A DNA stretch of 64,000 nt from a virus. Taxonomy: Duplodnaviria > Heunggongvirae > Uroviricota > Caudoviricetes. The notes under the pieces are model-generated. The model made no database searches and was not told the origin of the DNA. It saw nothing but the letters and a program-made list of their open reading frames with translations. The translations under genes were made by a program, and so were the position numbers. This document shows, piece by piece, positions 24,565 to 64,000 of the stretch (its first letter is position 1; every line of letters starts with the position of its first letter). Location of the stretch: the IMG/VR virus record IMGVR_UViG_2939521961_000009. One strand, given 5' to 3'.

Positions 24565-25965
24565 TTATTCTTCGGACTGGTCGTCGGTGTGCTGCGGCTC
24601 CTGTCGTTTCGTTGCGGCACTACTGCCTCCTTTATCACTGGCCGGATCGGTATCAAATACCAGATCCAGCTTGCGGTTTTCATCAATTTCGGCCTTGCGC
24701 CGACGTTTGACATCATCCGGATTACGACCACCAGCACGTACCCAGTCTGATTCTGTCGCCGCTCCACCACGAATCTGGATTTTCCAGGCCTCAGCCTCCT
24801 TAACAGGGTCAATCCACGGCATCACTGGTCCGGAATACACCGCGGTATACAGTGAAGAACGGTCAAGATCGCGGGGTAGCCTGATAACACCGGATGCCAC
24901 AGCCTGTTTCAGCCATGCACGATACATCGGGCGGGTGACGGCACCAATAAACCAGTCCTGCAGGATCAGGTAGCCATCAGTGGATTCAACCAGCTCCTGA
25001 CGCTGGGCGCTGTAAGTGCCGTTATAGTTGCGCGCTGTACTGGAAAAACTCAGACGACTGCCCGCCGCCACGGCACGCAACTGACCATTACGAAAAGTTT
25101 CAAGGTTAGGATTGGGGCGATCCGACTTCACCATTCCGATTTCTTCGCCGGGTTTCAGATCGTCGTAAATAATGCCCGGCTGAATGGTAAGCTCACGTTC
25201 ATTCTCCTTTCTGCCATTACCATCCGGTTCATAGCTCTGCCCGTCGCCTTTCCGGATGTACATCCCCAGAGCAGCGGCGATCCTTGCTGCAGTCAGCTCA
25301 GAATCTTCATATTCTTTCAGGGCACTGAGGCGGATCAGCACACCGGACAACAAAGACGTCCCGCGCATCTGGTGCAGACGGCGAACAAATTTAAGATGCA
25401 GCATTCGCTCTGCATCCACTTCTTTGGTTTCCATCTGCCGTCCGGATACGGGACGGCTTTTATACACCAGATATTTTTCGGGACGCCCCCAGTCATCAAC
25501 AAACACGCCCTGATTCAGCCTGTTGCTCTCATCACTAGTCATGGGAATAAAGTCCGGCTCGAGCGCCTCCAGCCAGAAATGAACACCGGCAGAAGGCGCC
25601 AGGCTGTTTATGCGCCCGGAAACCATCTGGGCAAACACCTCACCATCGCGCAGCCAGGTACGAAGCATCAGACGTTCCAGCATCGGACGGGTAAACTGCC
25701 CGGTGACTTCCGGGCTGACAGACCATTCACTCCATCGGGTGCGAATCTCCGCAGCCAGGTCACGGGCAATGGCCCCATTGCGTAATACCGGATGTGGCTC
25801 GACAATAATCCCGTTTTTCCCCACCACCCGTTCTTCCAGCTTGTCAAATACACCAATAACCAGATCGTGGTTGTTATCAAGGTAACGGGCCTGCTCACGT
25901 AACGACACGGCCCCGTACTGGCTTAACTGGTATAGCGCGGCGATTTTTTTGATACCGATTTGCAT
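24565..25965 (-). CDS. Portal protein, 466 aa; 5' end may be altered by the adjacent Mu-like prophage end
   Basis: Size and position upstream of protease-capsid gene; no clear Shine-Dalgarno before the ATG. Confidence 0.75.
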   Translation of the reverse strand: MQIGIKKIAALYQLSQYGAVSLREQARYLDNNHDLVIGVFDKLEERVVGKNGIIVEPHPVLRNGAIARDLAAEIRTRWSEWSVSPEVTGQFTRPMLERLMLRTWLRDGEVFAQMVSGRINSLAPSAGVHFWLEALEPDFIPMTSDESNRLNQGVFVDDWGRPEKYLVYKSRPVSGRQMETKEVDAERMLHLKFVRRLHQMRGTSLLSGVLIRLSALKEYEDSELTAARIAAALGMYIRKGDGQSYEPDGNGRKENERELTIQPGIIYDDLKPGEEIGMVKSDRPNPNLETFRNGQLRAVAAGSRLSFSSTARNYNGTYSAQRQELVESTDGYLILQDWFIGAVTRPMYRAWLKQAVASGVIRLPRDLDRSSLYTAVYSGPVMPWIDPVKEAEAWKIQIRGGAATESDWVRAGGRNPDDVKRRRKAEIDENRKLDLVFDTDPASDKGGSSAATKRQEPQHTDDQSEE

Positions 25966-26058
25966 TTCATTTGATACCGCTGAAAAACGCCGATACGCAA
26001 CTTATTTGATACTAAATCGGCGCTTTTCTTTTGAGTTTTAGAATGAGTTTTTAAGCGC

Positions 26059-26796
26059 TCATTCACTCTCTTTCAAACCAGTTTTAACTGTTTGTGGTTT
26101 TGGGTAAGGCTGGACTTTGAATAGCTTTGTGTTGAGGCGTTTTCTGGCCCTCTTGTTCAGAAACCGGATGTAACGAAACTGTCGGAACTTATGCACACTG
26201 GCTCTGTCGATATTAGCCCTCAGATGTTCACCTCGTTGTCCGCCTCGTTTAATGGCACTCCTGCAAATCTCGTGATACCACTCGCCATCAAGTTCATAGA
26301 ATGTTGATTCATGGCTGCCTACATAATCAAAATTGCTTGCCTGATACACGACACCAAGACAGCCACAACGCTCATCTGCAAACGACTGAACCCACTGTAC
26401 CTGCGGATAAAGCTGCCTGATTAGCTTGAGCGCGTAACTGATTGCCCTTGATTCGGAGTTTCTCGGCATACAGTCATGCATCCATAGCCGGTTAAGCTCC
26501 ATATATTCTCGGTTCTGCGTACCCGTTACGACGCGTGCACCACTGTTTGGGTTAAGGGCGTAACCCCATTGCATTACGCCAACAAGTTCCCGTTCTGAAA
26601 ATATACCCAGATGAAGGTAGGAATTATTTACGAAACGGTGGCTGTAATGTTTATTGACGATAACCAGTCTGGCCAGCCAGCAACTTATTGTCTCAACCCG
26701 CAACTCACGGGAGCCATAACCAACGATATTGTCGTTATAGCGAATAAGTTCAGGCGTGCTGATGATACGGGATGTGACTTGCTTTCTGTTCCCCAC
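26059..26796 (-). CDS. mom: Mom-like DNA modification protein (245 aa; apparent GTG start)
   Basis: Immediately downstream of and overlapping a Com-like zinc-finger gene, at the extreme right end as in Mu; size matches. Confidence 0.65.
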
Positions 26797-26950
26797 GACA
26801 GGATTTCCTTGTGTATGTGGGGTGCTCTGTGGCGCTCGGAGATGTGATTTGATTGAGGGTTTTACAGCGCGGACATTTTACTTCCAGATAACTGAAACTG
26901 GCCCGTGCCAGTAGCTTATTGCAGTGTCGGCACCGTATGTTTCGATACAT
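26750..26950 (-). CDS. com: Com-like zinc-finger translational activator (about 66 aa from [14 protein letters not shown])
   Basis: CxxC...CPRC pattern and sequence resemble recalled Mu Com; AGGAGG upstream; overlaps mom start. Confidence 0.7.
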
Positions 26951-26995
26951 GGCCGCATAACCTCCTGCTTTGTTGTTGATGCCTTTCTCATGCAA

Positions 26996-63357: not shown

Positions 63358-63367
63358 ACATCCCCCA

Positions 63368-63634
63368 TCAAGCCACTTCTCTGGCGTCCACCTGGTATCT
63401 GCTGGGCCAGATTACAGCAGGTTCAACCCCTATTTTTTCGGCGATGGCGGCTTCGTATTTACGGCACTGGCGGTAAAACACATTGCGCATTGATCCGCTT
63501 TTTAATCCTAACTCCCTTTCCAGTTCAGGGAGGTCTGTGCCTTTGTTTTCAAGGGCTGCATATACCGCTTTAGCAGACCAGTCACACCCCTCTCGAACAA
63601 ACAAATTATTCGATGCTTGTCTGGATACCCTCAT
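63368..63634 (-). CDS. ner: Ner-like DNA-binding protein
   Basis: C-terminal EPAVIWPSRYQ matches recalled Ner family; divergent from repressor. Confidence 0.75.
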   Translation of the reverse strand: MRVSRQASNNLFVREGCDWSAKAVYAALENKGTDLPELERELGLKSGSMRNVFYRQCRKYEAAIAEKIGVEPAVIWPSRYQVDAREVA

Positions 63635-63790
63635 TGTGTGATCCTCTCATGTTTACCTGAACCGATAATCAAAACCGGTTATCGATTTAGGTAAATCATA
63701 ATCGCAAAATAATTCGATATCAACGGTTTTTTGCGAGCATATCGAAATTAAATGCGATGTCGATAATTTCTTTGTTTTATAGGGGGTTAT
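63635..63790. promoter_or_regulatory. Divergent early promoter/operator region between ner and repressor, with repeated CGATAA/TTATCG motifs
   Basis: Several copies of the motif in 156 bp between divergent regulators. Confidence 0.45.
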
Positions 63791-64000
63791 ATGGATAAGG
63801 CAGAAAAAACCGTATCCAGTGCGGAACGGTTTATTGATATGGAAGGAATAAACCGATTTTCAGAACGCTTAGCTATGGCTATGGGAAACATGACAAACGT
63901 CGAACTGGCGACCCTTTGTGGACTATCTGAAGCCACAGTAAGAAATTACAGGAAGGGGAAAAACTTCCCTCCTTTGGATAAACTGGCCTTAATAGCTAAA
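63791..64000 (+). CDS. Phage repressor, N-terminal HTH part (70 codons, continues beyond window)
   Basis: ATG at 63791 with open frame to window end; HTH-like ELATLCGLSEATVRNYRKG; divergent from ner. Confidence 0.55.
   Translation, partial: MDKAEKTVSSAERFIDMEGINRFSERLAMAMGNMTNVELATLCGLSEATVRNYRKGKNFPPLDKLALIAK

What the first reader, a model, noticed from the sequence alone, without database searches (positions are those of the whole stretch)
25940..64000. Nested prophages: Mu-like element inserted at the portal gene start of a lambdoid prophage
Lambdoid late genes run from stf up to a portal gene whose start is at 25965; within about 20 bp the Mu-like right end begins and the element continues to the window edge. 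The lambdoid terminase and everything upstream are missing on this side, so the Mu-like phage has most likely transposed into the lambdoid late operon between terminase and portal, or replaced that segment.
Basis: inference. Interest (0 to 1): 0.55.

Follow-up and report, generated by a model that had tools for sequence, protein, structure and literature searches.

The report
Mu-like prophage inside lambdoid portal gene
A complete Mu-type transposable prophage of the known Sp18 family has jumped into codon 48 of the portal gene of a Qin-type lambdoid prophage in an E. coli chromosome; this nesting is real but is an ordinary, already documented event in Shiga-toxin-type E. coli genomes.

Summary
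The nesting is real, but the junction is misplaced in the finding. The window is almost identical to E. coli strain War (NZ_CP074717.1), which shows what lies beyond base 64000.

- **Mu-like right end.** It starts at base 25931, not after 25965. The ATG at 25965 lies inside the Mu end, so the 466-aa "portal" ORF is a chimera of 12 Mu-derived codons fused to portal residue 49 onward.
- **Left end in War.** It lies about 770 bp past the window edge. It is followed directly by the portal 5' fragment, a small gene, both terminase genes and the rest of a Qin-type prophage as far as its integrase.
- **Clean insertion.** Deleting the 38,840-bp element and one CTGG copy rebuilds a 502-aa portal 100% identical to an intact one in another strain. 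The event is a simple transposition into portal codon 48. It is neither an insertion between terminase and portal nor a replacement.
- **The element.** It is a complete relative of Sakai prophage Sp18, present in 233 of 5426 complete E. coli genomes at many different sites, including other prophages. The literature already reports such nesting.
- **Side observation.** All nine independent insertions examined, Sp18 included, have a 4-bp duplication rather than 5-bp, and TG...TA termini.

Interest is low.

The parts
1750..25930 (-). Late (tail and head) arm of a full-length Qin-type lambdoid prophage at the ydfJ...rspB locus. The left boundary is approximate. It contains pinQ, tfaQ, stf, lom, J, tail genes, tape measure, head-tail genes, a ClpP-protease/major-capsid fusion and the portal 3' part.
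   Evidence: PGAP annotation of the near-identical strain War. Pfam hits for the portal and the capsid fusion.
4336..5599 (-). IS600 copy 1, between tfaQ and the tail-fibre gene. It has a 3-bp duplication (AAT) and is shared with strain War.
21105..22368 (+). IS600 copy 2, inside the DUF2190 head gene. It has a 3-bp duplication (GTC) and is 1264/1264 identical to copy 1. It is absent from War, and no complete E. coli genome searched holds it at this site.
24565..25930 (-). 3' fragment of the lambdoid portal gene, from the end of codon 48 through codon 502 plus the stop.
   Evidence: Pfam PF05136. PGAP marks it 'phage portal protein, missing N-terminus' in War. Reconstruction.
25927..25930 (.). 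Target-site duplication copy CTGG at the Mu right end. The second copy follows the Mu left end in War at L001 4771-4774, about window position 64771-64774.
   Evidence: The empty site GGCTTAACTGGTCGGCAG in strain E2865. Junction sequences.
25931..26058 (-). Right (mom-side) end of the Mu-like prophage. The terminus reads 5'-TATAGCGCGG. Three inward-facing TTTGATAC(C/T) repeats at 25949, 25971 and 26006 are presumed transposase binding sites.
   Evidence: The left and right ends align in register.
25931..25965 (-). Spurious start of the chimeric 466-aa ORF. The ATG and about 12 codons are supplied by the Mu end.
26059..26995 (-). The mom (26059-26796) and com (within 26750-26995) genes.
   Evidence: Pfam PF25680, E = 8.5e-77. 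Pfam PF10122.
27130..30132 (.). Accessory region: a frameshifted plus-strand ORF, DUF826, DUF1378 and a 682-aa protein with DUF6645 and SASA-esterase domains.
   Evidence: The same content is present in other copies of the phage.
30232..32243 (.). Gin-like serine invertase (30232-30792, minus strand) and an invertible tail-fibre segment bounded by 185-nt inverted repeats (30853-31037 and 32059-32243). The segment is in the opposite orientation to War.
32765..54032 (-). Mu-like late genes: tail fibre, baseplate, tape measure, tube, sheath, head completion, gpT capsid, protease I, G, MuF, Mu-type portal, terminase and lysis genes.
   Evidence: Pfam hits. PGAP annotation.
54104..63634 (-). Mu-like middle and early region: Mor (54104-54529), Gam (58380-58910), MuB-like ATPase (60263-61195), MuA-like transposase (61267-63357) and a Ner-like HTH protein (63368-63634).
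   Evidence: Pfam hits.
63792..64000 (+). 5' part of the Mu-like repressor-side HTH gene, cut by the window edge. In War the gene is 612 nt and the Mu left end (...CACCTGGTTACA) lies about 770 bp beyond the window.

Best explanation
An intact 38.8-kb Mu-type transposable phage of the Sp18 family (Sp18 is the Mu-like prophage of E. coli O157:H7 Sakai) integrated by DDE transposition into codon 48 of the portal gene of a full-length Qin-type lambdoid prophage. The lambdoid prophage sits at the ydfJ...rspB locus of an E. coli chromosome in the strain War lineage. The MuA-like transposase, helped by a MuB-like ATPase, joined the two phage ends to staggered cuts in the target. Repair left a 4-bp duplication (CTGG). 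The insertion splits the portal gene and separates the terminase and portal 5' part from the rest of the late operon. The lambdoid prophage therefore can no longer build heads. It is also hit by two IS600 copies in the window and, in War, by IS elements in xis. The ORF that seems to start at 25965 is a chance in-frame fusion with the Mu end. Shown here: the ends, the empty site, the duplication, the perfect restoration of the portal and the gene content. Inferred: that the window's own genome has the same left junction as War, and that the Mu-like phage is still active.
For: - **Source.** Apart from the flipped invertible segment and one C10/C11 tract, the window matches strain War base for base from 22369 to 64000.
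- **Right terminus.** It is at 25931. The matches listed from other genomes begin there, apart from two partial matches, and 233 of 5426 genomes carry this end.
- **Left terminus.** In War it is L001 4770 (...GGTTACA). Left-end matches in other genomes stop at or just past this base.
- **Beyond the left end in War.** The portal 5' fragment, a 70-aa gene, terminase large subunit, a DUF1441 protein (presumed small terminase), lysis genes, antiterminator, immunity region and integrase follow.
- **Empty site.** Strain E2865 reads GGCTTAACTGGTCGGCAG. The occupied site reads TTAACTGG|TATAGCG...GGTTACA|CTGGTCGG.
- **Reconstruction.** Removing the element and one CTGG gives a 502-aa portal with 0 mismatches to the intact portal gene of E2865, annotated WP_000985929.1.
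- **Mu-type gene set.** Confirmed by Pfam.
- **Precedent.** Other copies lie inside other prophages. Stx-phage records annotate a 'region of the inserted Bacteriophage Mu-like phage'. PMC10132054 reports 6 of 10 Sp18-like phages inserted in mobile elements, including Stx phages.
Against: - The left junction cannot be read in the window itself; it is taken from strain War.
- The window's genome differs from the War assembly by one extra IS600, so it is not the very same sequence.
- The duplication is 4 bp and the right terminus ends in TA-3', which departs from canonical Mu (5 bp, CA-3').
- Activity of this copy is untested.
Confidence: 0.95

Rival explanations
1. The Mu-like phage replaced or deleted the terminase-side part of the lambdoid prophage, for example by a Mu-mediated adjacent deletion. 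On this view the lambdoid element is truncated at the portal.
For: Inside the window nothing lambdoid lies beyond the Mu-like element.
Against: In strain War, which shares the identical right junction and Mu sequence, the missing portal codons and the whole terminase-to-integrase arm directly follow the Mu left end. In-silico excision restores a perfect portal.
Confidence: 0.03
2. The insertion lies in the intergenic space between terminase and portal. The portal gene would then be intact, starting at 25965.
For: An ATG-initiated 466-aa ORF with a lambda-family portal domain starts at 25965.
Against: The first 35 bp of that ORF are the conserved Mu terminus found at unrelated sites in 233 genomes. 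Intact homologues are 502 aa with a different N-terminus. PGAP calls both halves partial.
Confidence: 0.01
3. The junction is an assembly artefact, a chimeric join of two prophages.
For: Prophage-rich genomes are prone to misassembly, and the window differs from War by one IS600.
Against: An independent complete assembly has both junctions. The duplicated target bases and the exact restoration of the portal ORF are what a real transposition leaves and are not expected of a misjoin.
Confidence: 0.01

Closest known systems
Prophage Sp18 of E. coli O157:H7 Sakai (Mu-like; 38,759 bp, inserted in sorM)
   Same: Same phage family. The terminal sequences match (TGTAACCAGGTGAATCATTTGATACC... and ...AAAAAATCGCCGCGCTATA) and so does the 4-bp duplication pattern. 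The size is similar: 38,840 bp against 38,759 bp. It is described as intact, with an invertible host-range region distinct from Mu's (PMC2669165; PMC7430833).
   Different: The insertion site differs: a lambdoid portal gene rather than sorM. The best phage-collection relative loses similarity beyond window 63191, which suggests a different repressor-side region in that copy. Sp18 itself was compared only at its ends.
Sp18-like Mu phages inserted in Stx and other prophages of STEC (PMC10132054; GenBank LC727881 and LC727895)
   Same: The same phenomenon: a transposable Mu-like phage nested in a lambdoid prophage. Identity over the early region is 95-98%. The paper states that 6 of 10 copies lay in mobile elements.
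   Different: The host prophage here is a Qin-type, non-Stx lambdoid element, and the hit gene is the portal.
Bacteriophage Mu
   Same: Same overall genome plan: repressor and ner, A, B, gam, mor, lysis, head, contractile tail, an invertible tail-fibre segment with a Gin-type invertase, and com-mom at the right end. There are three transposase-site repeats at each end, clustered at the right end and with one set apart at the left. Integration is near-random with a short duplication.
   Different: No nucleotide match to Mu appeared in the phage search. The duplication is 4 bp rather than 5 bp. The right terminus ends in TA-3' rather than CA-3'. There is extra accessory DNA between mom and the invertase.
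Qin (Kim) cryptic prophage of E. coli K-12
   Same: Same chromosomal locus (ydfJ...rspB). Shared genes carry K-12 names in the War annotation: ydfK, pinQ, tfaQ, cspI, rzpQ, rrrQ, cspB, cspF, ydfT, ydfU, rem, hokD, relBE, flxA, dicB.
   Different: This copy still carries the complete tail and head module and the terminase genes. From established knowledge, the K-12 remnant lacks these. This copy is inactivated instead by the Mu insertion and IS elements.

Membership tests
Mu-type transposable phage | MuA-like DDE transposase and MuB-like AAA+ activator next to the repressor-side end | tested here: met
   The 696-aa ORF hits PF09299 (Mu-transpos_C, 1.5e-17) and PF02316. The 310-aa ORF hits PF09077 (Phage-MuB_C, 2.5e-25) and AAA_22.
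Mu-type transposable phage | Mu-type regulatory and accessory genes (Ner-like HTH, Gam, Mor, Com, Mom) | tested here: met
   PF13693, PF07352 (1.5e-41), PF08765 (2.8e-32), PF10122 and PF25680 (8.5e-77).
Mu-type transposable phage | Mu-type head module (portal gpH, MuF, protease I, capsid gpT) and a contractile tail | tested here: met
   PF06074 (3.5e-93), PF04233, PF10123 (1.9e-76), PF10124 (3.4e-119), sheath domains and Baseplate_J.
Mu-type transposable phage | The same element at many unrelated chromosomal sites, each flanked by a short target duplication | tested here: met
   295 places in 233 genomes with varied flanking genes. Nine independent insertions each carry a direct repeat.
Mu-type transposable phage | 5-bp target duplication as in Mu (6 bp in B3-like phages) | tested here: not met
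   All nine insertions show 4 bp: CTGG, AACG, TATG, CGTG, GTTT, TCCA, ATCA, ATCA and TAAA. The count is strictly 4 in melA (K-12 empty site), L009, L012 and Sp18. This lowers 'identical to Mu chemistry', not membership of the wider family.
Mu-type transposable phage | Terminal 5'-TG...CA-3' dinucleotides | tested here: inconclusive
   The left end is TG (3'-CA on the other strand). The right end is ...GCTATA-3', that is TA. This is conserved in the matches listed and in Sp18. The two ends align in register.
Sp18 lineage of E. coli Mu-like prophages | Nucleotide-level identity of both ends to Sakai Sp18 | tested here: met
   Sp18's termini match the window's and War's termini. Only the ends of Sp18 were compared, not its body. 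PMC10132054 describes such phages as Sp18-like.
Lambdoid (Qin-type) prophage | Lambda-type late operon order and the matching early, lysis and integrase arm on the far side of the insertion | tested here: met
   Window annotation by homology to War. The far arm is seen in War only.

The most novel reading that the evidence does not exclude
The Sp18 lineage of E. coli Mu-like phages may use a strand-transfer geometry different from Mu's. It would make 4-bp rather than 5-bp target duplications and carry one non-canonical TA-3' terminus. This has possibly not been described. A 2021 paper on transposable prophages states that the Mu- and B3-like phages described so far have TG-CA ends and 5- or 6-bp duplications (PMC8705779). 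The nested insertion itself offers no novel reading.
Probability: 0.4. Interest if true: 0.3.

Novelty: already known. Interest (0 to 1): 0.15.

Why it matters
The result mainly matters for annotation.
- It shows that the apparent portal start is a fusion artefact.
- It places the prophage boundary at 25930|25931.
- It shows that the Qin-type prophage was killed by a clean, apparently recent Mu-like insertion, in addition to IS600 hits.
- It is one more example of how transposable phages erode the prophage pool of STEC-like E. coli, a pattern already reported.

The only point of wider interest is the consistent 4-bp duplication and the TG...TA ends of this phage lineage. If that is undescribed, it bears on how Mu-family transpososomes set the target stagger.

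Tried and rejected
- **tRNA.** ARAGORN found no tRNA in the window. The 'tRNA-OTHER' that PGAP annotates between the Mu G and F genes is therefore not supported.
- **Rfam.** At gathering thresholds only IS009 matched, at 3777-3975 in the tfaQ region. Nothing matched at the junction.
- **Source genome.** I searched for a genome with IS600 at 21105. None of the 5426 complete genomes has it, so the exact source genome could not be fetched and War was used as a proxy.
- **5-bp duplication.** I tried to read the duplication as 5 bp, either ACTGG with Mu ending ...TTAC, or CTGGT with Mu starting ATAGCG. Both fail in other insertions and against the constant termini seen in BLAST end points.
- **Literature.** Two searches for a stated duplication length for Sp18 or SfMu found none.
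- **Technical.** Several fetched loci did not reach the Python sandbox, so their ends were read with get_sequence instead.
- **Rejected readings.** Replacement or deletion, an intergenic insertion, and an assembly artefact were all rejected (see the rival explanations).
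Full report
**Where the window comes from.**
A 2.2-kb query across the proposed junction matched one complete genome end to end at 100% identity: E. coli strain War, NZ_CP074717.1. A direct comparison shows that window 22369-64000 matches War base for base, with two exceptions.
- The invertible tail-fibre segment is flipped. All 44 apparent mismatches lie in its inverted-repeat arms.
- A poly-C tract at 56083 has 10 C in the window and 11 C in War.

The window also carries one extra IS600 at 21105-22368. War lacks it, and no complete E. coli genome searched holds it at that site. The window therefore comes from a very close relative of War. War can be used to see what lies beyond base 64000.

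**Checking the observation.**
The minus strand from about 1750 to 25930 carries a lambdoid late operon. It includes the tail-fibre assembly and tail-fibre genes, lom, J, tail genes, tape measure, head-tail genes, a ClpP-protease/capsid fusion and a lambda-family portal (PF05136, E = 6.6e-79).

From there to the window edge lies a Mu-type phage, also on the minus strand. Pfam confirms Mom, Com, a serine invertase, Baseplate_J, tail sheath, gpT, protease I, MuF, the Mu portal, Mor, Gam, a MuB-like ATPase, a MuA-like transposase and a Ner-like HTH protein.

The finding places the boundary wrongly.
- BLAST of the Mu side against 5426 complete E. coli genomes found 295 places in 233 genomes. The matches listed begin exactly at window base 25931 (TATAGCGCGGCG...), apart from two partial matches.
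- The ATG at 25965 is therefore 35 bp inside the Mu end.
- The 466-aa ORF 24565..25965 is an accidental fusion. Its first residues, MQIGIKKIAALY, come from the Mu terminus. The rest is portal residue Q49 onward.

**What lies on the other side.**
In War the Mu-like left end finishes at ...CACCTGGTTACA (L001 4770), about 770 bp past the window edge. Left-end matches in other genomes stop at or just past that base.

Directly after it come the portal 5' fragment, a 70-aa gene, the terminase large subunit and a DUF1441 protein (presumed small terminase). Lysis genes, cold-shock genes, the antiterminator, hokD, relBE, the immunity region, dicB, exonuclease, an xis interrupted by IS elements, and an integrase next to rspB follow. 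With ydfJ truncated at the other end, this is a full-length version of the Qin prophage locus of K-12. The locus assignment rests on gene names in the PGAP annotation and on established knowledge of K-12.

**Proof of a simple insertion.**
An intact portal gene in strain E2865 reads ...GGCTTAACTGGTCGGCAG... at the site. The occupied site reads ...TTAACTGG|TATAGCG...(Mu)...GGTTACA|CTGGTCGG....

Removing the 38,840-bp element and one CTGG copy gives a 502-aa portal ORF. It has no mismatch to the intact portal gene of E2865, annotated WP_000985929.1. The phage therefore transposed into codon 48 of the portal gene. That last point suggests a recent event.

The Mu-like phage is transcribed in the same direction as the lambdoid late operon.

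**The duplication.**
Here the shared bases are ACTGGT. The flanking A and T of that string coincide with the constant terminal bases of the element, so only CTGG is unambiguous. I examined eight further independent insertions.

| Insertion | Duplication |
|---|---|
| melA | AACG (intact K-12 sequence shows exactly 4 bp) |
| etk | TATG |
| near gabP | CGTG |
| terminase gene of another prophage (L009) | GTTT |
| dehydrogenase gene next to ydjK (L010) | TCCA |
| cah (L011) | ATCA |
| DUF4224 gene beside an integrase (L012) | ATCA |
| Sakai Sp18 in sorM | TAAA |

All nine insertions, counting the one in the window, show 4 bp. The element reads 5'-TG...TA-3' from left to right.

The two ends align in register. 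Each carries three inward-facing TTTGATAC(C/T) repeats. They are clustered at the right end, and one is set apart from the other two at the left end, as in Mu. A 2021 paper on transposable prophages says that Mu- and B3-like phages described so far have TG-CA ends and 5- or 6-bp duplications (PMC8705779). I found no paper that states the duplication length for Sp18 or SfMu. This is a side observation that may or may not be new.

**Comparison with what is known.**
The element belongs to the lineage of Sp18, the Mu-like prophage of O157:H7 Sakai. Sp18 is 38,759 bp, is predicted intact and has an invertible host-range region distinct from Mu's (PMC2669165; PMC7430833). I compared Sp18 only at its two ends, which match those of the element.

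Nesting of such phages in other prophages is already on record.
- PMC10132054 reports that 6 of 10 Sp18-like phages in closed CC119 STEC genomes were inserted in mobile elements, and that several Stx phages carried one.
- GenBank records LC727881 and LC727895 annotate a 'region of the inserted Bacteriophage Mu-like phage' inside Stx phages. They are 95-98% identical to the window's early region.
- Two of the insertions sampled here also lie in other prophages.

**Mechanism.**
Shown:
- the transposase and ATPase genes;
- the conserved ends with repeated sites;
- the near-random distribution of insertion sites;
- the target duplication;
- the exact restoration of the target.

Inferred: transposition by MuA/MuB-type chemistry with a 4-bp stagger.

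The consequence is that the lambdoid portal is split and the terminase genes are separated by 38.8 kb from the rest of the late operon. With IS600 in the DUF2190 head gene, IS600 next to the tail-fibre gene and, in War, IS elements in xis, the Qin-type prophage cannot produce particles. Whether this Mu-like copy is active was not tested. Other copies match its right-end kilobase at up to 100% identity, and its body differs from War's copy only at the poly-C tract, which suggests it may be.

**Verdict.**
The nested-prophage reading is right in substance. It needs three corrections.
- The boundary is 25930|25931.
- The insertion is inside portal codon 48.
- The duplication is 4 bp.

It is an ordinary, already documented kind of event, so interest is low.

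Noticed in passing
window 25927-25931; L001 4766-4774; loci L004-L006, L009-L014: All nine independent insertions of this Sp18-type Mu-like phage, including Sakai Sp18 itself, are flanked by a 4-bp target duplication rather than 5-bp. The element ends read 5'-TG...TA-3' rather than TG...CA.
   Followed up: partly
window 21105-22368: An IS600 copy with a 3-bp duplication (GTC) interrupts the DUF2190 head gene of the lambdoid prophage. It is 1264/1264 identical to the IS600 at 4336-5599. It is absent from strain War, and no complete E. coli genome searched has it at this site, so it looks like a very recent transposition.
   Followed up: yes
window 30853-32243: The Mu-like invertible tail-fibre segment has 185-nt inverted repeats that are 81% complementary, with 1021 nt between them. 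It lies next to a Gin-like invertase at 30232-30792. It is in the opposite orientation to strain War, which suggests the switch is active.
   Followed up: yes
window 56083: A poly-C tract has 10 C in the window and 11 C in War. It lies in a small hypothetical early gene of the Mu-like phage. It is either a sequencing error or slippage in the tract.
   Followed up: partly
window 27130-30132: An accessory block lies between com/mom and the invertase. It holds a plus-strand ORF that is frameshifted in every annotated copy examined, DUF826, DUF1378 and a 682-aa protein with SASA sialate-O-acetylesterase-type and DUF6645 domains. Mu has no counterpart at this position, and the function is unknown.
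   Followed up: no
window 3777-3975 (minus strand): A full-length match to Rfam family IS009 (RF02111, 226.7 bits) lies in the tfaQ region of the lambdoid prophage.
   Followed up: no
window about 46780-46900; L007 27378-27457: PGAP annotates a 'tRNA-OTHER' between the Mu-like G and F genes in most of the copies examined. ARAGORN finds no tRNA anywhere in the window.
   Followed up: partly
L009 2591-2926 (strain 2018-166) and window 24565-25965: Insertions of this phage create ORFs that run from the interrupted host gene into the Mu right end. The end happens to supply an in-frame ATG. Gene callers then report a shortened but apparently complete gene, which is a recurring annotation trap.
   Followed up: partly
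L001 19239-20309 and 27392-31617 (strain War, beyond the window): The far arm of the Qin-type prophage carries a partial ISEsa1 transposase gene. Its xis gene is split by ISCro1, which is itself interrupted by an IS600. These are further signs of a grounded prophage.
   Followed up: no
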